Assembly: GCA_000004985.1 (NCBI GenBank)
Contig: GG738876.1
Length of the DNA stretch: 64,000 nt
DNA from: Naegleria gruberi
Taxonomy: Eukaryota
Strand: one strand, 5' to 3'
In this document: positions 14,452-49,680 of the stretch, piece by piece
Layout: each line of letters opens with the position of its first letter
How positions within the stretch are numbered: position 1 is the first letter of the stretch
Made by a program: the position numbers and the translations under genes
Notes under the pieces: model-generated
What the model was told of the DNA's origin: nothing
Databases searched by the model: none
Seen by the model: only the letters and a program-made list of their open reading frames with translations

Positions 14452-16209
14452 ATGAGTGCTACAACTACTCCCACAACTACTGCAGTGGCTAATAACAGTT
14501 CAAATTCTGCTACTTCACCAACAGTAGCTGTCAAGAGCACTAATGGTTCGAATACATCATCAAATAATGCCAATAATTCAGCTTCGGATTATTATGTATC
14601 ATCAAAGAAGGGACTGGCAAATAATAGGGTGGAATCATCTAGTAGTGGAGAAAGATGGAATTCAATAGAGTTGAGTGATGTTGCTGCTAGTGGCAATACT
14701 TCAACTATTCCAGCATCGTTATCGATGGAAAATGAGCAACACAGTGATGATCATCATAGTGACAGTACAATAGAACCTCATCCACTTGATGCACATACTC
14801 ATACTATTGGAAACTATGCACAATTGGATCAGGAAAGTTCAAAACCGAAACTTGCAAGAAATCCATACATTTCACTTCTATTTCATAATAAGAGATTTTT
14901 AATTATTTGGATGGCAGGTGTCTTGTCAGGAATGGGAAATTATTTTTCAGAAATTGGTATTGTTTATGAAGTGGAAGAACGTACAACTGTTGGATTTGTT
15001 ACGAGTGGTGTTTTTATTTCAATCTTTTTACCTTCATGTGTTGCTACTCCATTTGCTGGTGTAGTTTCTGATATTTTCGATAGACGAAAGGTCTTGATTG
15101 TGTGTAATTTTTTGAGAGCTATTTTGGCTTTCGTTTTGGTGGCTGGTCCATTCATTACCAATACGAATGCACTCTTTGGTTTTTACTATACTATACTTGC
15201 TATGATTTTCTTTATTAATGCATTTTACGATGCTTCGAGAGGATGCATGATGCCACTCTGTGTCGATCACAATGATTTGGTTGCATGTAATGCATTGGAT
15301 AGTTTGACATGGTTGTTTTGCTCGTATACAGGTGGTGCCATTGGTGGAGCTGTGAGAGTTGCATTTGGATTGATTACTTGTTATGTATTGAATGGCATCT
15401 TGTTTATTGGTGCCTTAATGTTGTCCATCTGGTTGTTGTGGTTCCCTGATTTGAATCCACCGAAACCAGCCGACTTCCCAACTAAACCAATACCAATGAT
15501 GAAACACTCTCTGAAGGAATTAATTGCTGGATTCAAATTATTATTCAGTGGAAAGGGTTACTTGTTGAGTTTTGTTGTTATGAAATTATTGGGATCATCA
15601 GTTTGGGCCAGTATTGAATTTATCAATGTCAAATTATCGGAACTTCCAATGTTGAGCTTATTCAACAATGGTGAGCAAGGTATTCAAATGACCAACACTA
15701 TTGCCTACTGCTTGTTTGGTATTGGTTCAGGTTTAGCACCAATGCTTTTCGAATTATTCTTTGGAAATAGAATTAGAAGATCATTGAGGAGTGCATTCTG
15801 GACTCGTGTTGTAATTTTGGCTTCATTCTTTGCAATTTCTATGGGTTTCTTATTAATGTGCTTTACCTATCATGCCTCAATGTTCATTATTGCCAATTGT
15901 ATTCTTGGCTCAGCAGGAGGTGTCATGTGGGTTTACTCAATGTCAGCAATCGAACATTTAACGCCTAATCATTATTTGGGAAGAATTACTGCCTTTGATA
16001 TTTGTTTTGGATTTGGATTGGGACAAGCCATTGGTGTCATGATTCCTTCTCCATTACTCTATGATATTATAGGTATTAAGGTTCCTCACATCTTTGCCAT
16101 TGTCATGTTTGTTCTCTCTTGGATGTTGTTCTGTTTAACAATTGTCTGGTTCTATTTTACAAGAAAGATTCACCAACATTTTGTTGTGCATGATGATGAT
16201 CACCACTAG
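14452..16209 (+). CDS. Major facilitator superfamily transporter with about 12 TM segments, paralog of 31650..33302.
   Basis: Multi-TM hydropathy. About 85% aa identity to the second copy across the transporter core. The N-terminus is Thr/Ser/Asn-rich. Confidence 0.75.
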   Translation: MSATTTPTTTAVANNSSNSATSPTVAVKSTNGSNTSSNNANNSASDYYVSSKKGLANNRVESSSSGERWNSIELSDVAASGNTSTIPASLSMENEQHSDDHHSDSTIEPHPLDAHTHTIGNYAQLDQESSKPKLARNPYISLLFHNKRFLIIWMAGVLSGMGNYFSEIGIVYEVEERTTVGFVTSGVFISIFLPSCVATPFAGVVSDIFDRRKVLIVCNFLRAILAFVLVAGPFITNTNALFGFYYTILAMIFFINAFYDASRGCMMPLCVDHNDLVACNALDSLTWLFCSYTGGAIGGAVRVAFGLITCYVLNGILFIGALMLSIWLLWFPDLNPPKPADFPTKPIPMMKHSLKELIAGFKLLFSGKGYLLSFVVMKLLGSSVWASIEFINVKLSELPMLSLFNNGEQGIQMTNTIAYCLFGIGSGLAPMLFELFFGNRIRRSLRSAFWTRVVILASFFAISMGFLLMCFTYHASMFIIANCILGSAGGVMWVYSMSAIEHLTPNHYLGRITAFDICFGFGLGQAIGVMIPSPLLYDIIGIKVPHIFAIVMFVLSWMLFCLTIVWFYFTRKIHQHFVVHDDDHH

Positions 16210-16915: not shown

Positions 16916-19339
16916 ATGAGTCAGACATTAGCATCAACCATCTATCACAACAATACCATCGGTCTGCTTAACTATACCGATTCACAGACATTGCTGACGG
17001 AATTTGTTCGATTCAGTGCTTTTAAATTATATGGTAATGTCTTTCATTATACCTACGTAGATGATCACTTCTATTCGGTAGGCTTCATTCTCGGCATGAT
17101 ATCATTGGGAATTTTTATCGTCTTTGTGTTACCTTGCCAATTGGCTGTAAATATTCTGTATGGAATTCGGGCGCGAAAAATATTGAAAAAAAACAGAAAC
17201 AACTCATCGATAGAGACTCCACCCTCATCGGCTTCCTCTGGTGATGCTAGTGTAAATAAGGAAGAAAAGAAGAATAATACTGATAAATATACCTTTAGAG
17301 AAACACTGAAGAAAGCATGGTATGAATATGTTTTACTTGAGGGTGTGGCGAGGGCTACTCCTTCCTTTGTGATGGTCGTTTTTATTTGCTTAGTGATTTG
17401 GTTAACGAGTGCCTTTTCAAAGATACATTTTGCTGGAGCTGCAGTCTTGATGGCAATTACAATGACAATGTGGTTGATTCAGTGGGTATTGTTTGATTTA
17501 GGAACATTTACGTATGAAGTACTGAGGAGTTTTTCAACAAGATTTGGAAAGAGCAAAACATCGGAAGTAACTAAGGATCAAGAATTGAAAAATGTAGATG
17601 TGACAACATCAACCACATCAACCATGAATATTAATCAGAGCACAACAGCAATTGTTCCACCTTCGAATGATAGTTCATCTCATCATCATCACTCTGAACA
17701 TCGTTTCGGTGGATTAGTTAAGGATATTTCATTTGGATATGTTAAATCTTTGGCCAATCCTCTATTTAGAAGACATCCCTTATTAGGTGTACTTATAGTA
17801 TTCATCTTCTTCTTTGTTACTTTTCTGATATTTTTGGTTGTCAATGGTGTAACAGCAGACTTTTGTGTTGCCTACGATCCGATTGAAATCAGTACACTGG
17901 CCACTAGAGCTGGTGATTCTACTAGGTGTAAATCGGGCACTATCTGTTTTACTTACATGACGATTTCAGCAGATATTTCATCGGAAATGATTGTCAATTT
18001 TCAAATAGATGCAAAACAGCTCAACAGCTCTTTTGTTTATTATGGAACATTTGACCCTAATGCCGAGTTTCAATTCGATTCTAAGACAGCCTTAAAGGCT
18101 AATGCAAATTGCTTCAAAATGACTGTCATTGAAATTGATAGATGGCAATGTTATGTTAATTTGAGAGGATTGCAGTCTTCATCATCCTACTATGTCAAGA
18201 GTGCATTTACAGGAAAAGATTATACTGCCACTAGTGTCACTTTTGAGGATAGCAATGTATACAAGTTTAGAACAGCACCAAGTGCCTCTTCTCCTGATAG
18301 AATTGTTTCCTTCTTGAATGGAGGTGATTTAGCTTGGGGAACCAATTTCTTGTCCTTAGTTAAACTGATTCCTCCAACAGGAAAGAACATTTCAACAGCT
18401 CCCTATTTCTTTATGGTGGGTGGCGATGTTGCATACGATAATGGATGTGCCTACTGTTATATGAGATGGGAGAGTTGGTTCTCAAATTGGGCCAAATATA
18501 TGGTCGTTCCTCTTCAACACACCTCCTCAGTGTCACACACCTATACTCTGCCTCTAGCCTCTTGCGTTGGTAATCATGAGGCTGGAAATTTCAAAAGACC
18601 AAGATCTGACGATGCCTTCTATATCAGATATTTCCCTCATGAATTGGAGGGAGATTCTTCTAATTTGATTGTTTCTGACCCTCAATATACCAGAAAGTTA
18701 CAACACGTCCACTATCTCTCTTCCCACACATTGCTAATGGTGTTGGACTCTTGGGTTCACGAATCTCCAGAGCAACAAGTCTCATACATTGTCAATTACT
18801 TCAATGCTTTAGATCCATCAAAGTACAAGAACAGAATGGTTACGATTCACGAGGGAATTTATGCCTCCTCTTCTGAATTGAGCCCAATGACTGCAGCAAT
18901 GAGAGAACAATGGGAGGCCCTCTTCTTGAAGTATAACATTACACTAGTCTTGGAGAATCACGTTCACACCTACAAGCAAACCTATCCTCTCAGATTTGGT
19001 AAGGTGATGGATACTAAGGCTGATCCTTTAAATTCAAGAGCTGGAGCCGATAATGATTATTATTATGAAAGAAATATTTATAATGGATTAGGAAAGGAAG
19101 AAGAAAAGGGAATTATCTATGTTGGAGATGGAAGCTTGGGTGCACATTTTTATGGTGACAAGCTCTTGTTTGGAGATCCAATGTTCAGACAATTAGGAAT
19201 AATAACTCATTTCCACCATATCATTACTCATGATACAAATAGCGTTCCAACTATTGAGTTGACAGCTTATGGATATGATTCATCAACCGGAGACTCTTAC
19301 AGAGTTAGTGGTTCTGGTTTGACAATTAAAACTTTCTAA
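16916..19339 (+). CDS. Membrane-anchored purple-acid-phosphatase-like metallophosphoesterase.
   Basis: Calcineurin-like phosphoesterase motifs GGDLAWG, GGDVAYDNG and GNHEAG. The N-terminal roughly 300 aa carry several predicted TM helices. Confidence 0.7.
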   Translation: MSQTLASTIYHNNTIGLLNYTDSQTLLTEFVRFSAFKLYGNVFHYTYVDDHFYSVGFILGMISLGIFIVFVLPCQLAVNILYGIRARKILKKNRNNSSIETPPSSASSGDASVNKEEKKNNTDKYTFRETLKKAWYEYVLLEGVARATPSFVMVVFICLVIWLTSAFSKIHFAGAAVLMAITMTMWLIQWVLFDLGTFTYEVLRSFSTRFGKSKTSEVTKDQELKNVDVTTSTTSTMNINQSTTAIVPPSNDSSSHHHHSEHRFGGLVKDISFGYVKSLANPLFRRHPLLGVLIVFIFFFVTFLIFLVVNGVTADFCVAYDPIEISTLATRAGDSTRCKSGTICFTYMTISADISSEMIVNFQIDAKQLNSSFVYYGTFDPNAEFQFDSKTALKANANCFKMTVIEIDRWQCYVNLRGLQSSSSYYVKSAFTGKDYTATSVTFEDSNVYKFRTAPSASSPDRIVSFLNGGDLAWGTNFLSLVKLIPPTGKNISTAPYFFMVGGDVAYDNGCAYCYMRWESWFSNWAKYMVVPLQHTSSVSHTYTLPLASCVGNHEAGNFKRPRSDDAFYIRYFPHELEGDSSNLIVSDPQYTRKLQHVHYLSSHTLLMVLDSWVHESPEQQVSYIVNYFNALDPSKYKNRMVTIHEGIYASSSELSPMTAAMREQWEALFLKYNITLVLENHVHTYKQTYPLRFGKVMDTKADPLNSRAGADNDYYYERNIYNGLGKEEEKGIIYVGDGSLGAHFYGDKLLFGDPMFRQLGIITHFHHIITHDTNSVPTIELTAYGYDSSTGDSYRVSGSGLTIKTF

Positions 19340-19506
19340 TATTTTTACTTAACACCCAATGAATTTGAGGAATTGCTCTATTAAATTGATTTTTCAGAAT
19401 GATCTCCGTAGTTAACTTATCTTTTTGTTCGCTTGAATTATTAATGATTTTATTTGAAAATTACCACTATTCAATATTTTCATGCTATTTAATTATATTT
19501 TAAATT

Positions 19507-21372
19507 CTAATGATTAATCTTGTCACCTTTAACGTTATCTTTGAGATCACTTCTTGGTTTGAGTGAAATCTTCAAATTTCCAGGTCTGACAGTAATTCCA
19601 GGAATGTCTGTAACTTTATCCAATGGATCTTGTTCATTATTCAATAGTTCCAATTCGTAGAATTGTAAAATTCTACACAAGATTGAAAATGCTTCAATTT
19701 CTGCAAATTTATAACCCTATTAAATTTCAATAAAAATATTCTAAACTAAACTTACAATCTATTTCAATAAATTAGGACAAATAGTTTTAAAATTCGAATA
19801 CTTACACACTTTCTATTTCCCATAGAGAATGGAACCCATGTAAAATCATGTTGAATCTTTGATTGTTCCTCAGCATTCATTGGAAACCTTTCTGGAATAA
19901 ACTCATTAGGTTTCTCCCAATATTTTTCATTTCTATTCGTACTGAAAATATTAATCATCACTGTACTTCCCTTTGGAATAGTAAACTCTCCAATAGTAGT
20001 CGTTTTCTTTGCAATTCTAAAAACATTGACAACTGGTGGATGCAATCTCAAAGCTTCCATCACAATTGCATTCAAATAATGCATTTGATTGTAATCTTCA
20101 TAGGTAGGAGCTCTATTTCCAATCAATCTATCAATTTCTTCTCTTGCTTTCTTTTGAATTTCAGGTCTTTTTGCTAGCTCATAACAAACATAGGCAGAAC
20201 TTGAAGCTGTCGTCTATAGTTTCGTATATAATATGAATTGATGAATAATAGAAAGTCCAATAAATACGAACCTCATGTCTATTATAATAAATTAGGACAA
20301 ATAGTTTTAAAATTCGAATACAAACCCTGCAAGCGCGAAGATAAATGAATCTGCTTTGAGTTCAGAACGTGAAAGTAAGCCATTTTGAAGAACGTTGGCC
20401 TCTACTAACATACTCAATAAATCTCTTCTCTTATTAGATTCAGTTTCGTCTGTAGTTTGGAGATTAGTTTCGTATTCTTTGATACGTTCTTCAATGATTC
20501 GATCTAAAGTAGAAGAAACAATTTCCTCTGCTTCATTGACTTTAAAGTATTTTCTAGCCATTTTGGCAAAAATTGAACTTCCCAGGAATCGTCTAATAAT
20601 CAAACCTTTGGATAAAGTAGTTTCCATTGATTTTCTAAATACTTTTCCTTCAGGATTTGGATTATCACTTTCGAATATAGAAAAGTCCAATCCAAATAAA
20701 TGCTGCCTTTCCCAAAACATCTGTTCATTCCATTAATTTAATCACACAATTCCATTATAAATTTAAATTCGAAACTATAAACTCACCCAAAGTAATATCA
20801 CTAAAATCAGCAGTCGAATCAATCAACACACCAGCACCAACACTTCCACTCTTAATTTCCTTATCCCATTTCGTTCTTCTCATCAAATCAACACTCTCAC
20901 TCGCAACCAAAGCAACAAATTCCAAATTTTTAGGTGAAAATGCAGAATTTGCAACTCTGTGATGATTTTTCCAAGTTTCAGAGTTTGCATCCAAAGCAGA
21001 CAAAATATTAACTCCAAAAAGGTTGAATGGATCGTACATATCAGGTTCCTTGACAAAGTTGTGTCCTTTGGCTACGAGCAGTTCTTTGAGAAGATCACGA
21101 TCACAAATGGAGATGAGATTAGTTTTGAGCATTGAGACACGAACTGTTTTGGTTTTGGAATCTCCCTTCTCTTGGGTGAGTTGATACATGGAATGATGAG
21201 AGCCAAGGAAGAAGTGAGAGGCAATGATTGGAACTCTCTTGACAAAATTCATTAATTGCCATGATCCTGGAATGTTTTTGACTTTCGAATAGTTTTGATA
21301 GAGACGAAAGGATAAACTGATCAGTGCAGTTAGCAAGATGGCTAATAGCGTGTACGCAACAAGTGCAAACAT
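19507..21372 (-). CDS. Cytochrome P450, multi-exon. Exons include 19507..19716, micro-exon 19756..19758, 19806..20213, micro-exon 20272..20278 and 20326..about 20720. Exon 1 ends at 21372; the exon 1/2 junction near 20721..20776 is unresolved.
   Basis: Exons align to the + strand P450 paralog: membrane anchor, I-helix AGHETT restored only if the 7-nt micro-exon is included, EALRLHPP, and heme loop FSMGNRKC-I-G restored only if the 3-nt micro-exon ATT is included. Stop codon at 19507..19509. Confidence 0.65.
19759..19805 (-). repeat. Introner-like 47-nt intron, copy 1: GTAAGTATTCGAATTTTAAAACTATTTGTCCTAATTTATTGAAATAG.
   Basis: 43 of 47 nt are identical to the second intron at 20279..20325 in the same gene. 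It has its own GT..AG and sits 3 nt upstream of a conserved intron. Confidence 0.7.
20279..20325 (-). repeat. Introner-like 47-nt intron, copy 2: GTTTGTATTCGAATTTTAAAACTATTTGTCCTAATTTATTATAATAG.
   Basis: Near-identical to copy 1. It lies at the AG|HE I-helix position where the paralogous P450 (48880..48917) is uninterrupted. Confidence 0.7.
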
Positions 21373-21542
21373 TTTTTTTAGTATGAGAAAGCAAGTGGAT
21401 GATCAATTCGTTCTGACATGATTGCTGCACTTTCATGAGAAGTTGGATCAATTCTCCGAAAGAAACCGAAAGGGTAAATTATTCACAATTTTGTACCATT
21501 TCATACCCTTTTGTAAACCTTCTACAAATTGCAATTAACACT

Positions 21543-22415
21543 TCATAAAAAACTATAATCTCTAAATAAACAATTCCCCTTAATTTTGACATCAACTGAC
21601 AGTAATTGTTCCAAATCACTCAAATATTCGAGTCCTTGAATACTAATCTCATTCTCACTTATATCGAGTTTAGTCAATTGTATCAATTTGTTAATGTGTT
21701 TACATCCCTCATCCCCAATATAATTACTGGCAATATTAAGGTTAGTTAATTGAGTCAATTTACCAATGTATTTGGTTCCCAAAGCAGTAATATTATTCTC
21801 AGAAATGTCAAGATATGTTAAATGCTTCAATTGACTGACTTGTTTAGCTCCCTCATCACCAATTTCATTCTGACTAATATCAAGTTTAGTCAATTGATTC
21901 ATCTCACCAATGTATATAGCACCTTCAACACCAATATTGTTGCAACCTATTTTAAGATTTTTCAATTTTTTCATAATTCCACTAATGATCTTTGCTCCTT
22001 CCACTCCAACATTATTATTTCTAATATTGAGATGAGTCAATCGATTCATCTCTTGCAACTTTTTACAATCAAATACCACATCAGAAGGAACATCAACATT
22101 GTATTCCAGCTTGAGACGTGTAATATTAGGTAAGAATTGGCTTCCAACTTGGAATTTTGAATTACTTTTACATGAAAGGGAAAGAGTTGATCGTTCGGAG
22201 GTGATGATTTTCAACCACTGCTTTGAAACCAATGAACAACTCAGCACGAGAAAGGTAAAATCTCGAGGGAGAAAGGATAAGATTTCACCCAGTACATCAT
22301 CAGAGAATATAGAATCAGGATCTTGTGAGAGTTTCTTCCGTTTTGTTTGGTCGTCTTTAATGTTTGAAATATGGTAAGATTGGTGATCATCAAATTCTCT
22401 TACTCTCTTTATCAT
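21543..22415 (-). CDS. F-box-like plus RNI-type leucine-rich-repeat protein, paralog of 59765..60721.
   Basis: N-terminal motif DDVLGEILSFLP, then tandem roughly 24-aa repeats of the form L..L.I..N.IG.EGAK.I. Confidence 0.75.
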   Translation of the reverse strand: MIKRVREFDDHQSYHISNIKDDQTKRKKLSQDPDSIFSDDVLGEILSFLPRDFTFLVLSCSLVSKQWLKIITSERSTLSLSCKSNSKFQVGSQFLPNITRLKLEYNVDVPSDVVFDCKKLQEMNRLTHLNIRNNNVGVEGAKIISGIMKKLKNLKIGCNNIGVEGAIYIGEMNQLTKLDISQNEIGDEGAKQVSQLKHLTYLDISENNITALGTKYIGKLTQLTNLNIASNYIGDEGCKHINKLIQLTKLDISENEISIQGLEYLSDLEQLLSVDVKIKGNCLFRDYSFL

Positions 22416-22592
22416 TTTTTTTAAATAAACTTGAAATTGAGAGAGTATTACAATTCACTCACTACTTCTTGCCAACTTTCTAAATTCTTCTCATATTCAT
22501 TATCATGAAGGCTTTGAAATTAAATTCAACAAATCTTCATCATCAAAGGCTTCATCAAAAAATTTGACAAATAAAATATTAGGAAGAACAAT

Positions 22593-23995: not shown

Positions 23996-26900
23996 ATGAG
24001 AATTGTTACTCAAAAGCAAAGAAGATGGGGTAAACAAACTTCCCATCAACTACAGTCATTGTTAAAAACAGCACTCGTGGTGATAACACTGTTAGTATTG
24101 ACCCTTCAAAACTTATTCGAAACTGTACAGGGTGAACAACAAGTTTCCTTCACATTAGATTCTAACAAACTCATCTGTTCGGATTCTTCAAGCTACAACA
24201 GCACAATCTTTTTAAATTCATGCCAAGAAGTGCTTGGTTCAGCCTTCACTAGTAAATTATCCAGCACAACCATTGACAATCCTTCGTCCTATTCTTCCCT
24301 AGTGAGTTGTTACTTTAATTCGGATAAAAAACTTGTGGCAGAGCTTGGCTATGGCTATGAAATTCAAGATATTTTCAAAGGAGAAACTTACTACGATGCC
24401 TTTGGAAGGAAAATAGCGATTATCATCGTTTCACAATTGAAATGTAGTTTTCAAATTTCAAAGCTACAGTACATGTACTTGATTAATGTAGTAGATTGTG
24501 GAAGTAATGTTGCCAAAATTACCTACTCTCTCACTCACGCAAATGCTGATTTACCCAAATATTCAACATTTTCACATCCAATGATGGCTATTCCCTTTTC
24601 AAATAATTATATTAACAATGGTAGACCGGATGTTACTTTTAATCTTGCTACCCAAGCACTCACATATAGTACTTCAAAAGCAAGTGACCAAACCTCAGTT
24701 ACTACTGGTGGTGTTATTGAGTATGGAACTACTACTTTGGTTGGAAATCAAGGATATACACAATTTTTTCTGAATGAAAGCTCAATTGACTCATACACAA
24801 CAACATTTGAACAACCTACTCCTAAAACATTGTATAATTATCTATTAATCAAACAGAATAGAGATGTTGTGGATGTAACAACCTTTGCATCTGGGTATAA
24901 TTACAAATTCTCCTCATCATCAGGTTATTCGAAAACAATATATACTTCATTTTCATACAAGTCAGATTGTTACTACTTGTCAGGAGGTGATAAAACTCAT
25001 CACAAAACACAGGATTTAACAATTAGTATACAGTCAACTGATTTGGAAAGATGTCCATTATATGCTTTACAATACATTTTTGATGGGAATGCTAAAACTA
25101 AAACGAGTAGCACGACATATGCTGCATCTTCACTAACAGATGGTTCAGAAAAGACTGTTACAGTAACTTTGGTTCAACCAACTGGTGGATACGTTGGTGC
25201 GTTCAGAACAACTGTGAGAATTGGAATTTTCCCTGCCATGATGAGACCAGTTTATTTCCCTATTGCACAAACAACTGGACAAAAGCTAACACTTCAATCC
25301 ATTATCGACATTCCTAATCTCACGACCTCTTTAATTTCATGTCAATTGATTGTTGCAACAGGAACTAATGAATATACTTCAAATTCAATTACCTATGATT
25401 ATACTCCAAATTCAATTCAAGTTCAAAATTACAAAACCTATTCGATTATATCGGTTTCAATTACTGTTGGAAATCCTGGAACTTCTTACAAGATTAGAGT
25501 CAATTATAATGGAGATACAAAACATTACAATGATTTCCAAATTTCTCCACAATCAAAACCAAACCTATTGGGTATTTGTAAAGTATCCACAGTTGAATCG
25601 AACCCAATAGCCTACGAGACATTTTTTGGTATTTATTGTGAAAATTATGCAGATTTTGACTTTAGATCAATGAAAATTCAAGTATTGAACGATCAATCAC
25701 AATCAATTTTGACCTTATCCAATACCAAGTACACTCGTATTTTTGCGAGATTACCAAAATCAGCAACAGGTAAATCAAATACTGTCTTGTTTACATTGAC
25801 AGATAGCACAGGAGCTGTATTTGAGTTTAAGGATACCTATAAAGCTTCCATGTGGAGCGACACTAATTTGATTAGTACAGTAGATTTCTACATCAAGTCC
25901 AAGCAAGTGAGAAACTATCAAACAGCCAATAATATTGCAATTTTGTTGGACATTCTTGCAGATTATTGTAAGAGGAATACATTATCTTCTTCTGAGATGG
26001 TTACTGTGAAGGGAATTGTTCGTTATGCCATAAATGAAACATTTAACATTAGAGATACTTTCCATCCTAATGTTTATCCTGAGGCTACTGAATTATTGTT
26101 TGGATTATTTAGAGAATCAACTAATTTGGCGAATTATCTAGGATTTTCAGAGTTTAATGACAAATTGAAGGAAATTCTCTCATTTATGACAAGTTATGTA
26201 AGAAAATCATCCTTTTCCAGCACTGATTATAATTTCTTGATAGATTACATGTCAAGACTTGTGGATAATGGAAATCAAACAACTACTGATCCATCTGCTG
26301 TTTCAACTTTGAAGAAAAACATTGATGGATTGACTAATATCGCCAGCAAGAATTCTCCATTCAAGAGTGATTATTTTTCATATCAATCTCAGACCTTCTA
26401 CTCATCAGATGAAATTGCTTCAAATCAAGTGAATTTGGAAAATAGTTGGGTTAGAGTGTTGTTTGGATCTGAGGTGGCCAATTTGGTAAAATCTCAATCA
26501 CAATACGATTTGGAAACAAGTTTATACAAGAAGTATATTGTGGAAAATAATGTTACACTCCCAGTTATTGCCTCTATCAGTTTGAAGAGACAAGATAGCT
26601 CTGTGGTTAATGTTACTGGATTACAGACACCAGTATTAATATATTTCAACATGGATCTAATTAATTCAACAATGGCAAATCAATATAGAAACTATCAATC
26701 GAGAATTTCATGTTATTACTTGAATGAGTTGACAAGCAAGTGGGCCAATGATGGTCTAACAACAGAGATTATCACTGAAAATGGTCAAACTGTTGTCAAG
26801 TGTTCTTCCACTCACCTTACTTCATTCACAATATTCTCAGACTTGTTCAATACTACAGGTAGTAACACAAATACCCCATCAACAGATAGAAATGGACTAG

Positions 26901-28032
26901 ATGTTGGGGCAAGGGTAGCCATTGGCGTTTCAATTTCAGTATTCTTCCTCATTTTGATAATTGTGATTGTAATTATTATCATTGTAATTATATGTTGTCG
27001 TGTGAAAAAAGGCAAAAATAGTCAGAGCAATGTTTCTGATTCTGTCCAGGAAACCAATCCAATCACCAAGAGTTATGTAGAATTGAATCCAGTCTCCAAC
27101 TCTGATTCTGGTCCATCATTGTTTATTAGTGATTACAAGTCAGTGAGAGAGCCTTCATCCTCGAAACAATACGATACTACCAGTGGAAGTTCATTTACCT
27201 CAGAGCCAACCAGCTCACTCATGACTTCAACAAGTGGAAACTCTGTTATTGGAAAGAAGTATGAAATTTTGGAAAAGATTGGCCAAGGAGCATTCGGGGC
27301 TGTATTTAGAGCTAAAAATCTAGCCTATACTGGAAGATCTGGAGAATATCAATATGTTGCCATTAAAAAGATTCAGCTTTCTGGCCTCTCTGAAATGAAT
27401 GACAAATTCAAAGAGGCGGTCAACATGTTCAAGATTAGAAATGAGCATTTAGTTTGTTTGGAGGATGCTGTGGTGGACGAAACGACCATGTCACTCTACT
27501 TGGTCATGCAATATTATTCTCAAGGAGATTTGGACAAGTTTATCAAAAGCAAGCAACTCTTATCTGAGAGCATTCTGAAACAAATTATTGAACAAGTATG
27601 TGAAGGATTGAAATATTTGGAAGAGGAACGTAACATGCTCCACAGAGATATCAAACCTTCCAATATTTTCCTATCCAGCTATGATGGAAACAATATCAAG
27701 ACAGTGCTCAGTGATTTTGGATTGGCTAAGGAAAATAACATGATGTCAAGTGTTTCATTCGCTGGAACTCCATACTACATGTCTCCACAGGCCTTAATTG
27801 GAACCAAGTATAGCTTTAATGCAGATATCTTTAGTTTGGGATGTACCATTTTCATTCTCATCACTCATGACATGTCTCAATCCATAGCTCAATTATATTT
27901 CCAACATCAGGGCAATTTCTCTGAGGTTTATTCCTTCATTACCAACTCTATCCGTCAACATTCGAATGAACAATTCCAATACAGTGATGAATTCGTTCAG
28001 CTCTTATTTGCATTGATGGAATTTGATCCCAA
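23996..28032 (+). CDS. Receptor-like single-pass transmembrane Ser/Thr protein kinase with a roughly 950-aa ectodomain that ends in a GPS-like motif. The 3' end is truncated by an assembly gap.
   Basis: N-terminal hydrophobic signal or anchor; a Cys- and NxS/T-rich ectodomain; ...C..W...G...T..C.STHLTSFTIF immediately before the TM segment VAIGVSISVFFLILIIVIVIIIIVII. The kinase subdomains are GQGAFGAV, VAIKK, HRDIKPSN, DFGLAKE and GTPYYMSPQ. Confidence 0.75.
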
Positions 28033-28181
28033 NNNNNNNNNNNNNNNNNNNNNNNNNNNNNNNNNNNNNNNNNNNNNNNNNNNNNNNNNNNNNNNNNNNN
28101 NNNNNNNNNNNNNNNNNNNNNNNNNNNNNNNNNNNNNNNNNNNNNNNNNNNNNNNNNNNNNNNNNNNNNNNNNNNNNNNNN
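28033..28181. other. Assembly gap, a run of N.
   Basis: 149 consecutive N. The ORF-track protein spanning it (X residues) is an artefact that fuses two genes. Confidence 0.99.
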
Positions 28182-28186
28182 TAACA

Positions 28187-29545
28187 ATGTTGTGGATTGA
28201 AAAGGTTGGTGCAGTTGGAGGACAACTTGTTGCTGGATTTCAACCCGAATGTATGATTTGCAGAGAAACAATCAACAATGGAGAGGTTTGTATTGGCATG
28301 AGGAAGGTTCATGATTTGGCTATTCACTTTCCCTATCATCCGAGAAGATTTCTCGAAGAAGAGGAAAGGCTTCGTTCCGATGATCATCCATTCAATGAAA
28401 ATTATTTTGATGATTGCAAACAGGACAATGATTATGTACATACTGATTGTTATCCGTACCAATTGGTGAGGCCGTATGCTTGTATGTTTGATGATTCATC
28501 ATCGAATGCTTCTCATGCAGAACAAAAGCAAATTCATAAGTTGATTTCTGATTGGCAATATGGCTATAGAACATTGAATGCCAAGACAAAGAAGAGAAAA
28601 GCAGATAATGGTGATGAAAGTGAGAAGAAAACAAAGACTTCAAAGAGTACTGCAACAAAAAGGAAGAGAAAGACAAAGAAGGAATCAACAGACAGTGCAT
28701 CATCATCAACTAGTACCCCTGGAGGAAGTAGTAGTGGTACTACTGATTACAGTTGGATGAATGCTATTGATTGCACTAATGTGGATTCACCTTACTTGTT
28801 TGGACTCTCAGATGATGCTTGGTATGAAATTCTATCCTATCTACCTCATTATTCAATTGTGAAGGCCTCACAATCATGTAAGGCATTGTACCTTTATTCG
28901 AATAGGAGTATTCTTTGGGAGAATTTGGCAAGCAAAACTATTTGTCCTAATGCAAAACAAGTCCAACAGGAATACTTTCCAACTCTTACTGATGACTTTA
29001 AAAAGGTTTTCAGATTATTGTACAATAATTGTTGTGTAATTTGTGGAGATTATATCAGAAAAGGTGAAGACCTAGATAATAGAAAGAGTTTGTACAGATC
29101 AAAAGGTGGTATTATTGTAGAATCTAATCCATTTTATTATAATTTTATGATTGATCAGTGTCATTGCTCAACATGTTCAGAATCACCACTCATCAATACC
29201 TTTACAAGAACAAATGCCAAGACGCTTTATAGGGTTACAGATACTGAACTAGGGTGTACTAGAAATTTTGCAAAGCCTAACCCTTATTCTCCATCTGTTG
29301 CTATGGGAATATTCCTAGAGTTACAAGTTAAAATATTTCATTTACAGAAAGTGGAAGAAGAATTGAGGAAAAATTTCAAAAAATCAAAAACACATCCAAA
29401 ATCAGATTATTTAAAAATTATTGACAAGGCAAAACGAGGAGATTATGGAAAGGATTGTAAATTATATATTTTCTTAAATGATTCGAATAAGAAGATTTGT
29501 AAAGATAAGGCTATTTATACTTATATTGATGAATTGAGTCCATAA
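28187..29545 (+). CDS. Hypothetical F-box-like, Cys-rich protein. The 5' end is uncertain and possibly truncated by the gap.
   Basis: The ORF resumes right after the gap. The motif LSDDAWYEILSYLP is F-box-like. It carries Cys-rich CxxC pairs and a Lys-rich NLS-like stretch. Confidence 0.5.
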   Translation: MLWIEKVGAVGGQLVAGFQPECMICRETINNGEVCIGMRKVHDLAIHFPYHPRRFLEEEERLRSDDHPFNENYFDDCKQDNDYVHTDCYPYQLVRPYACMFDDSSSNASHAEQKQIHKLISDWQYGYRTLNAKTKKRKADNGDESEKKTKTSKSTATKRKRKTKKESTDSASSSTSTPGGSSSGTTDYSWMNAIDCTNVDSPYLFGLSDDAWYEILSYLPHYSIVKASQSCKALYLYSNRSILWENLASKTICPNAKQVQQEYFPTLTDDFKKVFRLLYNNCCVICGDYIRKGEDLDNRKSLYRSKGGIIVESNPFYYNFMIDQCHCSTCSESPLINTFTRTNAKTLYRVTDTELGCTRNFAKPNPYSPSVAMGIFLELQVKIFHLQKVEEELRKNFKKSKTHPKSDYLKIIDKAKRGDYGKDCKLYIFLNDSNKKICKDKAIYTYIDELSP

Positions 29546-31084: not shown

Positions 31085-31396
31085 GGGATGTAAATTTGAA
31101 ATTGATTACAAAAATAAATTACAAAATTGTTGTAAGTTTCAATTTTTGAGCATGTATTAATTTTATAAACCACAATTTGCTATTCATTCCAATAGAGATC
31201 AATTCTACTACCTCGAAAACTATGATTATTTAATTGGGAATTACATTAGTTTCTTATAAAAAGATGCTTAGACCTAATTGTCAACCTTTCTGTCGTTTGT
31301 GAGCACAATCGTGTTCAACAAAGATGGCTGGGTTTCAATTAAGGTAATGTGGTGGTGTGAAATGTTGTCATGCCGATTGATGAACTGCTGTAATTC
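31085..31396 (+). repeat. Dispersed roughly 310-bp repeat family, copy C.
   Basis: Shares a conserved 5' end (GTAAATTTGAAATTGATTACAAAAATAAATT) and 3' end (GATGAACTGCTGTAATTCTTTT) with the copies at 40018..40330 and 42236..42550. The middle has diverged. Confidence 0.7.
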
Positions 31397-31649
31397 TTTT
31401 AACTGTTTGCTGAATTTTAATGTTTTTTACTGAAACACTATTAAAGTTGATTTCTCTAATTCTGAGCAGGTTGAAACAGCATCTTCTTGTGAAGAAACAT
31501 TGGAACAAAGTTAAAGGAAATGGATCGAATGTAACTACATTTTTTTGCTTAAGTAATATTCTAAACAGAAACCTTTCCCTTATTTCCTTTCTTGTAAATT
31601 TTTTGAAAACATTAATTTTATTTACAATTTGATAATTCATTGTAATAAT

Positions 31650-33302
31650 TCAATGCGACATTACTTCTTCATGATGCTCTTCAACAGTGTGATGTTGGTG
31701 AATATTCTTTGCCAAATAAAACCAAACAATAAATAGGCAGAAAATCAACCAAGAAAATACAAACATTACCAAACATAGTAATTGTGGTGTTAAAATTCCA
31801 AAAATATCATACAAGAAAGGAGAAGGAATCAAAACACCAATGGCTTGACCTATTCCATATCCAAAACAAATATCAAAAGCTGTAATTCTTCCCAAATAAT
31901 GATTAGGTGTCAAATGTTCGATTGATGACATGGAATAAACCCACATGACACCTCCTGCTGATCCAATAAAGAATTCAGCAATAATAAACATACTGGCATG
32001 GACACTGAAAGACATGAGTAAGAATGCAGCTGGGAAAACCAAGAAAGATCCAAGAATTATGAAACGAGTCCAGAATGCACTCCTCACTGATCTTCTTATA
32101 CGATTTCCAAAAGTTAATTCGAATAACATTGGAGCTAAACCTGATCCAACGCCAAATAGACAGTAAGCAATGGTATTAGTGAGCTTGGCTCCTCCTTCAT
32201 CATTAAATAATTGCATTGATGGTAATTCGGATAATTTAACATTGATAAATTCAATACTGGCCCAAACTGATGATCCCAATAATTTCATAACAACAAAACT
32301 CAACAAGTAACCCTTTCCACTGAATAATAACTTGAAGCCAGCAATTAATTCCTTCACAGAATGTTTCATCATTGGTAATGGTTTAGTTGGGAAATCGGCT
32401 GGTTTCGGTGGATTCAAATCAGGGAACCACAACAAGGCAATTGACAATGCCAACGCAATCAAGAACAAAACTCCATTCAATACATAACAAGTAATCAATC
32501 CAAATGCAACTCTCACAGCTCCACCAATGGCACCACCTGTATACGAACAAAACAACCATGTCAAACTATCCAATGCATTACACGCGACCAAATCATTGTG
32601 ATCGACACAGAGTGGCATCATGCATCCTCTCGAAGCATCATAAAATGCATTAAGGAAAAATATTAAGGCAAGGATGATGTAATAGAAGGAGAAGAGGACT
32701 GCCTTATTTTCCATAAAGCAACCACCAATGAGGACGAAAGCTAGAATGGCTCTCAGGACATTGCAGACAATCAAGACCTTTCGTCTATCGAAAATATCAG
32801 AAACTACACCTGCGAATGGAGTAGCAACACATGACGGTAAAAAGATACAGAGAAATACAGCACTTGTGGCAAATCCAACAGTTGTACGTTCTTCCACTTC
32901 ATAAGCAATACCAATTTCTGAAAAGTAATTTCCCATTCCTGACAAGACACCTGCCATCCAAATAATTAAAAATCTCTTATTATGAAATAGAAGTGAAATA
33001 TAGGGATTTCTTGCAAGTTTCGGCTTTGAACTTTCCTGATCCAATTGTGCATAGTTTCCAATAGTATGTGGTGCTTCCAAACTTTCCATTGACGGTCTAG
33101 GTTCAGAGTTTAGTTCAATATCGTCCAATGATTTTCTAGATAAATCCTGATCATGACTTGTCGCTTCATCATGATCTTCAATGGAAATCCTCTCTCCACC
33201 TGCAACCACTCCTCCATCCTCTTGATTCCAATCTTCATCTCCTCTTGCATGTCTTTGTTTGTCCATCACTTTCAATTCTTCTTCCATTTTTGTTGTGGTC
33301 AC
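31650..33302 (-). CDS. Major facilitator superfamily transporter, paralog of 14452..16209.
   Basis: 550 aa and about 12 TM segments. Internal nucleotide stretches are about 97% identical to the other copy. The N-terminus is acidic and unrelated. Confidence 0.75.
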   Translation of the reverse strand: MTTTKMEEELKVMDKQRHARGDEDWNQEDGGVVAGGERISIEDHDEATSHDQDLSRKSLDDIELNSEPRPSMESLEAPHTIGNYAQLDQESSKPKLARNPYISLLFHNKRFLIIWMAGVLSGMGNYFSEIGIAYEVEERTTVGFATSAVFLCIFLPSCVATPFAGVVSDIFDRRKVLIVCNVLRAILAFVLIGGCFMENKAVLFSFYYIILALIFFLNAFYDASRGCMMPLCVDHNDLVACNALDSLTWLFCSYTGGAIGGAVRVAFGLITCYVLNGVLFLIALALSIALLWFPDLNPPKPADFPTKPLPMMKHSVKELIAGFKLLFSGKGYLLSFVVMKLLGSSVWASIEFINVKLSELPSMQLFNDEGGAKLTNTIAYCLFGVGSGLAPMLFELTFGNRIRRSVRSAFWTRFIILGSFLVFPAAFLLMSFSVHASMFIIAEFFIGSAGGVMWVYSMSSIEHLTPNHYLGRITAFDICFGYGIGQAIGVLIPSPFLYDIFGILTPQLLCLVMFVFSWLIFCLFIVWFYLAKNIHQHHTVEEHHEEVMSH

Positions 33303-39897: not shown

Positions 39898-40017
39898 TTT
39901 TTTGTGAACTTTTACAATTTTTATTCCATGTGTACACAACTATATATTGTATTGCTGTTTCTGATCTAGTTAGAAAGAAAAGGAAAGGTAAAGAATATAG
40001 AAAGATGAAGAAAAAAA

Positions 40018-40330
40018 AAGAATTACAGCAGTTCATCAATTGGCACACAGATTTTGTGCCAACACATTACCTAAAGCGTAACCCTTCAATCAAAGGTACA
40101 CGAGCTACACAATGACCGTCAGATTTTGCTTTTAGTCTGAGCATCTTTTTTATTAGAAACTAATGTAATTCCCAATTGAATTGTAATTGTTTTCAAGGTA
40201 ATAATCATGAACGCAATAAGAATGAATATCAAATTGTGGTTTTATTCTTTTTAAAATGTTGCACATTTTCAATCCCCAAACTGAAACTACAAATTTTGCA
40301 ATTTATTTTTGTAAGCAATTTCAAACAATC
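40018..40330 (-). repeat. Dispersed roughly 310-bp repeat family, copy A, inverted relative to copies B and C.
   Basis: This is the reverse complement of 42236..42550 with a few substitutions. On its own strand it ends in a T-run. Confidence 0.75.
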
Positions 40331-41560: not shown

Positions 41561-42052
41561 TTTATGCATTAAAACCTGTAGGGACATCATCAATCAAACA
41601 CCTTACAGAGTGAAAGATAACAAGGAACTGATCTGTGATTAGTTTCTTGTTGAGTGGACCAAAGAGTGAGGTTGTCCAAACAATAACATAAGGCAACTTC
41701 TCTCATCCACTCTATTCGAATTGCTGTTATGCCATTCGAATCACAGCTGTACTCATTAGGGAGCATTAGTCTATTTTCGATTAAGTAATTGAGTATTTGC
41801 AATCTGTTGCTTGTCGCTGTTGGTAAAGTTTCAGATAATATCATACTTATTACACCTTAGTGATAGATCCATGATTAGTTTTCAGTTTACTATTTAATTT
41901 GGGCAACTTACTTTCCTTAATGTTATTGTTTGGACAACCTCACTCTTTGGTCCACTCAACAAGAAACTAATCACAGATCAGTTCCTCGTTATCTTTCACT
42001 CTGTAAGGTGTTTGATTGATGATATCCCTACAGGTTAATGCATATAAAACTA
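41561..42052. mobile_element. Foldback / MITE-like non-autonomous element with about 130-bp terminal inverted repeats.
   Basis: 41561..41692 is the near-perfect reverse complement of 41920..42052, with 2 to 3 mismatches. A roughly 230-bp non-coding core lies between. No ORF. Confidence 0.75.
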
Positions 42053-47897: not shown

Positions 47898-49615
47898 ATG
47901 TATCTTATTGAACTGTTGCTTGCAATTCTACTTGTCATTGCAACCATTATCATTGTGAGAGTTTATACGAGTTATAGAAAGGTTTCACACATTCCTGGAG
48001 GTTGGCAAATAACCAGTTTTCTATTTAGAATTCCAATTGTGGCAGAGTATGTCTTTATTAATAATCCGAGAAGAATTCTTCAATTGGTAAAGGAGAAGAG
48101 TGAGAAGGAGAATGGAAATGTTGTGAGAGTTAGTTTGATGGGTAGAAATATTGTCTATATCAATGATAAAGAGTTACTGAAAGAGGTTATTGTGACGAAA
48201 GGTCATAATTTCCCAAAACATAAGGCGCCTTATGAAGGATTTACTATATTTGGTGAGAATATATTGACCATTGAGGATTCTGCTGATGAAAATTTAAGAA
48301 ATCATCACAAGGTTTGTTCCCCTGCATTCACAAATCAAAATTTGGAATATCTTGTAGATTATTCTTCTAAAAGTATCGGAAAGTTGTTCGATAGATGGCA
48401 GAAACAAACTAAAGAATACACAATCAATGGAAAAACTGTACAAGGTTACTCACCTGCAGATATCAAGAATGATTTCAGTGATTTGACTCTTGATATTTTA
48501 GGACAAGTTGGTTTTGGTTTGGATTTTGACATTTTCTCTGCTAATGAACATTCTGAAGGCATTGAATTTAGAAAAAGTCTTGAATTACTTTTCACAACTG
48601 GTGTATTTGTTAAATTATATGTTGGAATGAATCCTCTCCTTAAATGGGCTCATCCACTAGCTCAACAATATTTTGGAATTGACCATGCATTGAAGTATGT
48701 GAGTTCCAAATTGGATGACATGATTTCTGTGAGAAAGAATGAAATTGAACATCAATTTAGTTTATCTGGTGAAGGTTCTGATAGAAGAGACTTGTTGAGT
48801 TGCTTGATTGAAGCAAATTATCTTCAAAAAGGTTTATTGACTGATGATGAAGTCAAGTCTGATGCGTTTATTTTTTCGCTAGCCGGCCACGATACTACTT
48901 CAACAACCTTCCAATGGGTAAGTTTTAATTTTTTTATTGTTATTTAAATTTTTTTTATTTTTTTAAAATTTTCAAATTCCATAAATAGTGTTGTTATGAA
49001 TTAGGAAAGAGATTGGATGTTCAACAAAAAGTTCGTGAAGAAGTCAATTCCATCTTGAAAGGAAGAAAGCCAGTCTTTGATGACTTTACCGAAATGAATT
49101 ATTTGAATTGTGTTGTTATGGAAACTTTAAGATTGCATCCACCAGTTCCAGCTGGTTTCCGTGTGGCCAAGAAATCAACCAACATTGGAAAATATCAAAT
49201 TCCAAAGGGTACCATTATTGCACTCGATTTGGCTAATACCAATTGGAATGAAAAACATTGGGAGAAACCTTTCGAATTTATTCCAGAAAGATTTGCTATG
49301 AATTTTGATGAAAGACAAAAAACTGAAAGTGATTTTACGTGGGTTCCATTCTCTATGGGTAACAGAAAGTGCATTGTAAGTTTGAAAATCTATATTTCAT
49401 TTATTTAGGCATTTAAATAATTCCAAATTTGTAAATTTTAGGGATTTAAATTTTCCAGATATGAATTATTCACCCTATTGAGCAATATGATGCAAAAATA
49501 TGAAATTATCACATTGAATGATGAATCTAATCCAAAAGATAGAGTATATGAAGTCCCTGGTCCAACCATCAATCCAGGAAATTTAAGATTGCTATTTAAG
49601 GAAATTTCCAATTAA
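47898..49615 (+). CDS. Cytochrome P450, three exons: join(47898..48917,48989..49375,49442..49615).
   Basis: N-terminal anchor, I-helix AGHDTTS, ETLRLHPP, PERF, and heme loop FSMGNRKC-I|G with an intron after Ile. Both introns are GTAAGT..AG. Confidence 0.85.
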
Positions 49616-49680
49616 TTAAAAAAATAATTTAATAAATAAATTGAGAAACACAAGAAATCAAATCTTGATCTCAAGTTGAA

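What the first reader, a model, noticed from the sequence alone, without database searches (positions are those of the whole stretch)
19717..20325. Two copies of a 47-nt introner-like intron in one P450 gene, each next to a micro-exon of 3 or 7 nt
Seen in the sequence. On the minus strand the intron at 19805..19759 and the intron at 20325..20279 are both exactly 47 nt and 43 of 47 identical, sharing the core TATTCGAATTTTAAAACTATTTGTCCTAATTTATT. Each has its own GT..AG. Copy 1 sits 3 nt upstream of a conserved phase-0 intron that is also present in the + strand paralog. The result is a 3-nt micro-exon ATT (19758..19756) that is required to rebuild the heme-loop C-I-G. Copy 2 interrupts the I-helix at AG|HETT, where the paralog at 48880..48917 is intron-less. 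It is followed by a 7-nt micro-exon ACATGAG (20278..20272) and a further 58-nt intron with donor GTTCGT. Only inclusion of both micro-exons restores the P450 consensus (AGHETT and FSMGNRKCIG) in frame. This pattern fits recent intron gain by a proliferating introner-like element, which I am not aware has been described for this lineage. It may also be a case of recursive or nested splicing.
Basis: partly seen in the sequence, partly recalled or inferred. Interest (0 to 1): 0.8.

Follow-up and report, generated by a model that had tools for sequence, protein, structure and literature searches.

The report
Duplicated 47-nt intron in Naegleria P450
One cytochrome P450 gene of the amoeba Naegleria gruberi contains two near-identical 47-base introns, each lying a few bases upstream of an older intron so that exons of 3 and 7 bases are left between them; this is a tidy example of an intron copied within its own gene, and I found no evidence that it belongs to a spreading "introner" family.

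Summary
There are two 47-nt GT..AG units on the minus strand (20325-20279 and 19805-19759). They are 43/47 identical with a 36-nt exact core, and they are the only copies in the window. The window is Naegleria gruberi NEG-M.

- **Already annotated.** The five-intron model with the 7-nt and 3-nt micro-exons is in the public annotation (XP_002675814.1 reads ...AGHETT... and ...NRKCIG...).
- **Missed frameshift.** It frameshifts the reference gene and splits it into two annotated models.
- **Independent allele.** A 99.2%-identical environmental contig lacks that duplication. It carries both units unchanged and gives an intact 534-aa P450 only if both units and both micro-exons are spliced as proposed.
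- **Neighbouring introns are older.** Their positions are shared with a paralog or with other Naegleria. The two 47-nt positions are unique to N. gruberi.
- **Unit properties.** It has no target-site duplication, no inverted termini and no stable fold. Homology stops at GT and AG.
- **No family found.** A published screen found no introners in this genome.

Best reading: a same-gene intron duplication, probably RNA-mediated, which is a known category that I did not find reported for this lineage. The introner-family reading is unsupported. No transcript data could be examined.

The parts
19507..21372 (-). Cytochrome P450 gene (ATG 21372, stop 19507-19509). Annotated in N. gruberi NEG-M as two split models, NAEGRDRAFT_69123 (N-terminal, 205 aa) and NAEGRDRAFT_69122 (C-terminal, 287 aa).
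   Evidence: Pfam PF00067 is precomputed for both models
20279..20325 (-). 47-nt intron copy 2 (GTTTGT...CTAAT...ATAG). It splits AG|HETT in phase 2 at a position unique to N. gruberi.
20272..20278 (-). 7-nt micro-exon ACATGAG (completes Gly and encodes His-Glu of AGHETT).
20214..20271 (-). 58-nt older intron i3 (GTTCGT...TATAG), phase 0 after AGHE. The position is shared with a Naegleria-like ortholog (L002) and lies 2 nt from that of L003/L004.
19759..19805 (-). 47-nt intron copy 1 (GTAAGT...CTAAT...ATAG), between Cys and Ile of the heme loop in phase 0, at a position unique to N. gruberi.
19756..19758 (-). 3-nt micro-exon ATT (Ile of FSMGNRKCIG).
19717..19755 (-). 39-nt older intron i5 (GTAAGT...AATAG), phase 0 after C-I. 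The position is shared with the in-window paralog (49376-49441).
20721..20786 (-). 66-nt intron 1 (GTGAGT...AACAG), phase 1, also absent from all compared homologs. It has a weak, unproven similarity to the 47-nt unit (TTCGAATTT, AAATTTATAAT).
20698..20701 (-). 4-nt tandem duplication ATTT that frameshifts the NEG-M reference allele. It is absent from the environmental contig L006.
47898..49616 (+). Paralogous P450 (XP_002675740.1) used to polarise intron positions. Its introns are at 48918-48988 and 49376-49441.
28895..28951 (+). Stretch of a kinase/F-box ORF that shares TATTCGAAT and, 30 nt further on, an 18-nt exact match (AAAACTATTTGTCCTAAT) with the 47-nt unit, sense to sense. It is a possible source of part of the unit; this is unexplained.

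Best explanation
The two 47-nt units are genuine spliceosomal introns produced by duplication of an intron within one gene ('same-gene intron duplication'). They are not members of a proliferating introner family.

An intron with a consensus-like donor (GTAAGTAT), a CTAAT branch-like site 13 nt from its end and a TAG acceptor was copied into a second site of the same P450 gene. Both copies lie in the sense orientation, 7 nt and 3 nt upstream of the donor of an older intron. This created two tandem intron pairs separated by micro-exons of 7 and 3 nt.

The mature mRNA therefore needs five splicing events. Within each pair, the acceptor of one intron and the donor of the next are only 3-7 nt apart, so the two introns are presumably removed one after the other (inferred).

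The most likely copying route is RNA-mediated intron transposition: the excised intron is reverse-spliced into the gene's own pre-mRNA, which is reverse transcribed and recombined into the locus. This route is inferred, not shown. It would explain why homology ends exactly at GT and AG, the absence of a target-site duplication, the sense orientation and the same-gene location. It might also explain the closeness to sites where spliceosomes already assemble.
For: Shown:
- The copies are 43/47 identical with a 36-nt exact core. Flanking exon sequence is unrelated, and homology stops at the GT and at AG(+A). There is no TSD (only a 1-nt boundary ambiguity for copy 2) and no TIR.
- Unit length and signals match other short introns of the window: 39-71 nt with GTAAGT(A/T)T donors.
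- Neither position carries an intron in N. lovaniensis (intronless ortholog), N. fowleri (intronless), another N. lovaniensis paralog, Willaertia, three environmental relatives or the in-window paralog. The two neighbouring introns are at shared positions.
- The annotated protein XP_002675814.1 equals the C-terminal 287 aa of the five-intron, two-micro-exon model.
- Contig L006 (ENA ERZ929261) is 99.24% identical over 2.6 kb and carries both units and both micro-exons unchanged. It lacks the frameshift and yields a complete 534-aa P450 with AGHETT, ExxR, PERF and FSMGNRKCIG only under this model.
- Between the two alleles the coding sequence has 2 of 13 substitutions although it makes up 61% of the aligned bases (binomial P = 0.0009). 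This is consistent with purifying selection on a spliced, functional gene.
- Two uniform random insertions would both land within 7 nt upstream of a pre-existing donor with P of about 1e-4.

Precedent: same-gene duplicated introns are a described class in fungi (82 cases), about half without exon duplication and attributed to transposition within the same transcript. Three are reported in C. elegans, and near-identical introns in Oikopleura (PMC3609843).
Against: - No transcript, EST or RNA-seq evidence could be examined. The annotation may rest on protein homology rather than cDNA.
- The NEG-M reference allele is frameshifted, so in that strain the gene may be decaying.
- Reverse splicing followed by recombination has never been directly demonstrated for nuclear introns, and it does not obviously predict insertion next to a donor.
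- The four differences between the copies are two dinucleotides. At each one, one copy resembles its own neighbouring intron. The unit also shares 18 + 9 nt with a kinase ORF 8.6 kb away (0 of 5000 shuffles reach 18 nt). Both facts fit a DNA-level patchwork origin at least as well.
- The complete N. gruberi genome could not be searched for further copies.
Confidence: 0.55

Rival explanations
1. DNA-level origin. The unit was assembled and/or copied during double-strand-break repair (templated 'filler' synthesis with template switching, as proposed for Daphnia intron gains). It was patched together from nearby sequences, and it works as an intron because the patch happens to carry GT, a branch site and AG.
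For: - An 18-nt exact match plus a collinear 9-mer to the kinase/F-box ORF at 28895-28951; 0 of 5000 shuffles reach 18 nt.
- The 3' end of copy 1 shares the 11-mer TTTATTGAAAT with the adjacent intron i5 (empirical p = 0.001). The donor of copy 2, GTTTGTATT, resembles the adjacent i3 donor GTTCGTATT (p = 0.02).
- The differences between the copies are confined to two dinucleotides near the ends.
Against: - Homology between the copies ends exactly at the splice sites, which a DNA-level copy has no reason to respect.
- There are no flanking microhomologies or direct repeats.
- The same patch would have to be used twice.
- The empirical null for intron-to-intron similarity was mostly coding DNA, so those p-values are optimistic.
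Confidence: 0.2
2. One reading: a member of a mobile introner-like family that is proliferating in N. gruberi and happens to have hit this gene twice.
For: - The unit carries its own splice signals and creates new introns at new positions.
- A third lineage-specific intron in the same gene (intron 1) has weak similarity to it (p 0.02-0.05).
- The whole genome was not searchable with the tools available.
Against: - Only two copies in 64 kb, both in one gene.
- No TSD or TIR, and no stable structure (z +0.9 and +1.0).
- At 47 nt it sits inside the 39-71 nt range of the ordinary introns found in this window, whereas fungal introner-like elements are described as longer than regular introns.
- N. 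gruberi NEG-M is scored as lacking introners in the 3,325-genome screen of Gozashti et al. 2022 (Suppl. Table 4), and both introns are in the annotation that such a screen would use.
- Metagenome and viral scans gave only one chance hit.
Confidence: 0.1
3. Two old, originally unrelated introns at these positions were made alike by gene conversion of their cores.
For: - The identical stretch is an internal 36-nt tract, and the ends differ.
- Intron positions in this family are extremely variable, so old lineage-specific introns are plausible.
Against: - Conversion needs prior homology.
- Both units are exactly 47 nt and also match at positions 1-2 and 43-47.
- No relative shows an intron at either site.
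Confidence: 0.07
4. The gene is a dead pseudogene and the units are unspliced insertions. The GT..AG ends and restored motifs only reflect the fact that any insertion leaves its flanks intact.
For: - The NEG-M reference has a frameshift and is annotated as two fragments.
- There are no transcript data.
Against: - The environmental allele has no frameshift and no other defect over 534 codons.
- The coding sequence is significantly less diverged than its surroundings (P = 0.0009).
- The copies differ from each other by 4/47, whereas the two alleles differ by about 1% outside the coding sequence. The insertions therefore predate the allele split, yet the ORF stayed intact.
- The unit has a full donor, branch-like and acceptor set.
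Confidence: 0.05

Closest known systems
Same-gene duplications (SGD) of near-identical introns, non-segmental type (van der Burgt et al. 2012; Collemare et al. 2013, PMC3609843), with similar cases in C. elegans and Oikopleura dioica
   Same: Two near-identical regular-sized introns lie in one gene at positions absent from relatives. The flanking exons are not duplicated, and the introns have no special fold. Such cases are interpreted as intron transposition within the same transcript.
   Different: This case is in a heterolobosean (Discoba), for which I found no report. Both copies abut older introns and create 3-nt and 7-nt micro-exons. The unit also shares an 18-nt stretch with a nearby coding sequence.
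Introners / introner-like elements (Micromonas, Aureococcus, fungi, dinoflagellates; Gozashti et al. 2022, PMC9860276)
   Same: A repeated sequence that brings its own splice signals and creates new introns.
   Different: Introners occur in tens to thousands of copies in unrelated genes. They often have TSDs and TIRs (transposon type), or are longer than normal introns with stable folds (fungal ILEs). Here there are two copies in one gene, 47 nt long, with no TSD, TIR or fold. The host genome was scored introner-free.
Spliceosomal twin introns (stwintrons) and other complex intervening sequences of fungi (e.g. PMC7138796, PMC8469720)
   Same: Two U2-type introns lie packed at one place and must be removed by consecutive reactions. 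A link to duplication of a donor element has been proposed.
   Different: In a stwintron the internal intron interrupts the donor, branch site or acceptor of the external one, and no exon lies between them. Here the introns are tandem and 3 or 7 coding bases remain in the mRNA.
Ultra-short micro-exons (1-15 nt) of plants and animals (e.g. PMC8831610)
   Same: Exons of 3 and 7 nt that encode invariant residues and are easily mis-annotated.
   Different: Those micro-exons are mostly ancient and conserved. These two appear to be recent by-products of an intron insertion just upstream of an existing donor.

Membership tests
Introner / introner-like element family | Many near-identical copies in introns of unrelated genes of the same genome | tested here: inconclusive
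   Only 2 copies in the 64-kb window, both in one gene. No real hit in the JGI metagenome or viral collections. The published screen lists NEG-M with ie = 0. The full genome was not searchable with these tools.
Introner / introner-like element family | The element supplies functional splice sites, so that insertion creates an intron | tested here: met
   GT..AG ends, a GTAAGTAT or GTTTGTAT donor and CTAAT 13 nt from the 3' end. An intact ORF results only if the units are removed. Splicing itself was not observed.
Introner / introner-like element family | Transposon hallmarks (target-site duplication, terminal inverted repeats) or, for fungal ILEs, greater length than regular introns and a stable predicted fold | tested here: not met
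   No TSD; terminal inverted identity is 3-4 of 12. MFE is -1.4 and -0.6 kcal/mol with z +0.86 and +1.02. At 47 nt the unit is within the range of ordinary local introns, 39-71 nt.
Same-gene intron duplication (SGD), non-segmental | Near-identical introns within one gene | tested here: met
   43/47 identity with a 36-nt exact core, 520 nt apart in one P450 gene.
Same-gene intron duplication (SGD), non-segmental | Flanking exon sequence is not duplicated together with the intron | tested here: met
   Alignment of 30-nt flanks shows no similarity beyond the unit, apart from one shared A after the AG.
Same-gene intron duplication (SGD), non-segmental | The positions are novel relative to orthologs and paralogs (a gain, not retention) | tested here: met
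   Absent in L001, L002, L003/L004, L008, L009, L010 and the in-window paralog. All of these are distant relatives, so the timing is only 'within the N. gruberi lineage'.
Stwintron | The internal intron interrupts the donor, branch point or acceptor of an external intron, and the two are excised consecutively with no exon between them | tested here: not met
   ACATGAG and ATT between the introns are coding and are kept in the annotated protein.
Recursive splicing | A zero-length exon (juxtaposed AG|GT) used as an intermediate within one long intron | tested here: not met
   The acceptor and the next donor are separated by 3 or 7 nt, which are needed in the mRNA.
Cytochrome P450 (Pfam PF00067) | Pfam match plus the I-helix AGxET, ExxR, PERF and FxxGxRxCxG motifs | tested here: met
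   PF00067 is recorded for P0129 and P0131. All four motifs are present in the 534-aa product.

The most novel reading that the evidence does not exclude
The 47-nt unit is a minimal introner that is, or recently was, mobile in Naegleria. It would propagate by a spliceosome-coupled route with a preference for landing a few bases upstream of existing 5' splice sites. Intron 1 of the same gene would be an older, decayed copy. At 47 nt it would, as far as I know, be an unusually short introner, and I found no introner reported in Discoba in the papers searched.
Probability: 0.1. Interest if true: 0.8.

Novelty: new member of a known kind. Interest (0 to 1): 0.45.

Why it matters
Recent intron gains whose source sequence can still be recognised are rare outside the few lineages that have introner families. 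This case has exact GT/AG boundaries, no target-site duplication, two copies in one gene, and an intact allele in a wild relative.

Both copies lie 3 and 7 nt upstream of older donors (chance about 1e-4). That hints that existing splice sites, or the spliceosomes on them, guide where new introns land, and it shows one way ultra-short micro-exons can arise.

On the practical side, the reference strain's copy is split into two annotated 'genes' by a 4-nt duplication. The pair should be merged or flagged.

Tried and rejected
- **Metagenome and viral scans.** A scan of JGI metagenome contigs with the 22-nt junction core gave one hit in a 52% GC contig with unrelated flanks, which is chance. The viral-contig scan gave nothing.
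- **N. gruberi genome not reachable.** Look-ups of N. gruberi proteins in the contig index (P0121, P0017) returned 'not on record', so the rest of the genome could not be sampled.
- **Kinase/F-box search.** A protein search with the C-terminus of the kinase/F-box ORF, meant to find a paralog encoding YSN-F-KTICPN as a source of the unit, gave no hits, not even to itself.
- **First homology search.** With cutoff 1e-30 it did not return the N. gruberi models, and I wrongly concluded for a while that the gene was unannotated. A second search with the N-terminal 327 aa found them.
- **Tandem or segmental duplication.** Considered and rejected as the origin, because no exon sequence is duplicated and the Ile codon occurs only once.
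- **TSD models.** Models built on the shared GTAAGT or GTTYGTATT would require ancestral genes lacking Ile or His-Glu. The paralog and all orthologs contradict this.
- **Protosplice-site preference.** Not seen. The insertion sites are GTGT|ATT and CAGG|ACA.
- **Relationship to intron 1.** Similarity to the unit is only p 0.02-0.05, so it is left open.
- **Other tandem-intron patterns.** Other matches in the window are at chance level and not in a coding context.
- **Literature.** No paper links Naegleria with introners, intron duplication or micro-exons. Nothing was found on PRJEB11402.
Full report
**1. What is in the sequence.**

I read the minus strand of 19000-22500 and built the gene model by script. 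The cytochrome P450 gene runs from ATG 21372 to the stop at 19507. Its five GT..AG interruptions are:

| Intron | Coordinates (minus strand) | Length | Ends |
|---|---|---|---|
| i1 | 20786-20721 | 66 nt | GTGAGT..CAG |
| copy 2 | 20325-20279 | 47 nt | GTTTGT..TAG |
| i3 | 20271-20214 | 58 nt | GTTCGT..TAG |
| copy 1 | 19805-19759 | 47 nt | GTAAGT..TAG |
| i5 | 19755-19717 | 39 nt | GTAAGT..TAG |

The 7-nt exon ACATGAG (20278-20272) lies between copy 2 and i3. The 3-nt exon ATT (19758-19756) lies between copy 1 and i5.

The two 47-nt units are 43/47 identical and differ only at positions 3-4 (AA/TT) and 41-42 (GA/AT). The 35-nt core occurs exactly twice in the window, against zero expected. 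No other stretch of the window resembles the unit beyond 11-mers, with one exception described in section 6.

**2. Where the window comes from and what was already known.**

Several ORFs of the window are identical to Naegleria gruberi NEG-M proteins on a 396,977-bp scaffold: EFC42992, EFC42993, EFC43076, EFC43079 and EFC43081. The + strand paralog as I modelled it equals XP_002675740.1.

The target gene is annotated, but as two separate models:
- NAEGRDRAFT_69123 (XP_002675815.1, 205 aa) ends by reading through into intron 1.
- NAEGRDRAFT_69122 (XP_002675814.1, 287 aa) starts at an internal Met.

The second model is exactly the C-terminal 287 residues of my five-intron model. It contains ...FALAGHETTASS... 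and ...FSMGNRKCIGYKF.... The public annotation therefore already uses both 47-nt introns and both micro-exons. I could not determine whether that model rests on cDNA or on protein homology.

**3.

In the reference, the sequence after intron 1 reads GCAGC-ATTT-ATTT-GGATTGGAC. Every homolog has K-A-G/A-F-G-L-D-F at this place. A 4-nt tandem duplication (20701-20698) therefore shifts the frame, and this explains the split annotation.

A protein 99.5% identical to the N-terminal model led to an ENA metagenome contig (L006: ERZ929261 / ERR1078381, 2614 nt) and a matching Logan contig (L007). L006 aligns to window 21923-19305 at 99.24% identity. Its properties are:
- It lacks the ATTT duplication.
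- It has both 47-nt units, both micro-exons, i1 and i3 without a single change.
- It has one change in i5, two changes in the coding sequence, and ten substitutions plus two indels in about 750 nt of flank.
- Spliced with the five-intron model, it gives an uninterrupted 1605-nt CDS and a 534-aa P450 with all signature motifs.

Only 2 of the 13 substitutions fall in the CDS, although the CDS is 61% of the aligned bases (P = 0.0009).

The two copies differ from each other by 4/47, whereas the two alleles differ by about 1% outside the CDS. The insertions are therefore several times older than the allele split, yet the ORF has remained intact. This is the strongest available argument, short of cDNA, that the units are spliced out and the micro-exons are included.

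**4. Which introns are old and which are new.**

- The i5 position (C-I|G, phase 0) is shared with the in-window paralog, which is 47% identical.
- The i3 position (AGHE|TT, phase 0) is shared with a Naegleria-like Logan contig (L002). It lies 2 nt from the intron of two metagenome contigs, L003 and L004.
- No homolog has an intron at either 47-nt site or at the i1 site.

The homologs examined were:
- the closest ortholog in N. lovaniensis, which is intronless (1443 nt for 480 aa);
- an N. fowleri relative, also intronless;
- a second N. lovaniensis gene with one intron, at GFG|LDF;
- a Willaertia gene with one intron, after AGHETT|.

Overall the family shows five different intron positions within about 40 nt of the I-helix motif and three within 10 nt of the heme cysteine. 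Intron turnover in this family is high.

**5. Properties of the unit.**

- Homology between the copies stops exactly at the GT and at the AG (plus one shared A).
- There is no target-site duplication (only a 1-nt boundary ambiguity at copy 2) and there are no inverted termini.
- It has no stable fold (z-scores +0.86 and +1.02).
- It carries CTAAT with the putative branch A 13 nt from the 3' end.
- Other probable introns of the window are 39-71 nt with GTAAGT(A/T)T donors, so 47 nt is ordinary here.
- If insertion sites were uniform along the CDS, the chance that both fell within 7 nt upstream of an existing donor is about 1e-4.

**6. Odd details that no explanation fully covers.**

(a) At each of the two dinucleotide differences, one copy resembles its own neighbouring intron. 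Copy 2 has GTTTGTATT against GTTCGTATT in i3. Copy 1 has TTTATTGAAAT, which matches an 11-mer in i5. The empirical p-values are 0.02 and 0.001, but the null was largely coding DNA.

(b) Unit positions 18-35 (AAAACTATTTGTCCTAAT) match exactly a stretch of a 1849-codon kinase/F-box ORF at 28934-28951, sense to sense. TATTCGAAT lies 30 nt upstream there and 3 nt upstream in the unit. None of 5000 shuffles of the unit reaches an 18-nt match.

(c) Intron 1, which is also lineage-specific, shares TTCGAATTT and AAATTTATAAT with the unit, but only at p 0.02-0.05.

**7. Interpretation.**

The data fit a category already described in fungi: same-gene duplications of near-identical introns. About half of those cases lack exon duplication and are attributed to intron transposition within the same transcript. 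A few cases are reported in C. elegans, and near-identical introns in Oikopleura (PMC3609843). I commit to that reading.

- **Best explanation (overall confidence about 0.55).** RNA-mediated copying (reverse splicing into the gene's own pre-mRNA, reverse transcription, recombination) is the most likely route. It explains the splice-site-exact boundaries, the lack of a TSD, the sense orientation and the same-gene location. The copying route is inferred, not shown.
- **DNA-level patchwork origin by break repair (about 0.2).** This is the main rival, because of the details in section 6.
- **Introner family (about 0.1).** Arguments against it: only two copies in one gene; no transposon hallmarks; no special fold or length; no real hits in the metagenome or viral scans. 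In addition, N. gruberi NEG-M is listed as lacking introners in Supplementary Table 4 of Gozashti et al. 2022. Neither that paper nor its 2025 successor mentions Naegleria in the main text.
- **Nested or recursive splicing.** This does not apply. The introns are tandem and the 3 and 7 bases between them are coding. Sequential removal within each pair is a reasonable inference from the 3-7 nt spacing but is untested.
- **Gene conversion between old introns (about 0.07) and a dead pseudogene (about 0.05).** Both are minor rivals.

**8. Limits.**

- No transcript data were reachable.
- The N. gruberi genome outside the window could not be searched, because index look-ups returned 'not on record'.
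- All comparison species are distant, at no more than 64% protein identity. 'Recent' therefore means only 'within the N. gruberi lineage, before the split of NEG-M and the L006 organism'.

**9. Verdict.**

This is a new member of a known kind, and the gene structure is already in the public annotation. Interest is moderate. It is a clean, datable case of intragenic intron duplication in a lineage for which I found none reported, with an unexplained and statistically striking placement next to existing donors that created 3-nt and 7-nt micro-exons.

Noticed in passing
window 20698-20701 (minus strand): The NEG-M reference carries a 4-nt tandem duplication ATTT that frameshifts the P450. This explains its annotation as two genes (NAEGRDRAFT_69123 and NAEGRDRAFT_69122). 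A 99.2%-identical environmental contig (L006) lacks it.
   Followed up: yes
window 28895-28951 (+), inside ORF 23996-29545: A kinase/F-box ORF shares an 18-nt exact stretch and a collinear 9-mer with the 47-nt intron unit, sense to sense. The spacings are 30 nt and 3 nt. The match is significant against shuffles, but its meaning is unknown.
   Followed up: partly
L001, L002, L003/L004, L008, L009, L010 and window 47898-49616: This Naegleria/Willaertia P450 family has very variable intron positions. There are five different positions around the I-helix AGHETT motif and three around the heme cysteine, and some orthologs are intronless.
   Followed up: partly
window 39969-40325 and 42245-42597; inner pair 41573-41696 / 41913-42036; related piece 31089-31400: Long inverted repeats (94-98% complementary) flank about 2 kb that has no ORF of 250 aa or more. 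There is a second inner inverted pair and a partial third copy 9-11 kb away. This may be a foldback or non-autonomous transposon.
   Followed up: no
window 14800-16179 and 31692-33068: An inverted segmental duplication (76-88% complementary over about 1.3 kb) covers the DUF894 gene (EFC42992, 14452-16209) and the ORF at 31650-33302.
   Followed up: no
window 20721-20786 (minus strand): Intron 1 of the same P450 is also absent from every homolog examined. It shares TTCGAATTT and AAATTTATAAT with the 47-nt unit and might be an older relative, but the similarity is only marginal (p 0.02-0.05).
   Followed up: partly
window 60160-60663: Six tandem 72-nt periods (65-74% identity) lie inside an ORF, presumably leucine-rich repeats of the F-box/LRR type that is common in this window.
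   Followed up: no
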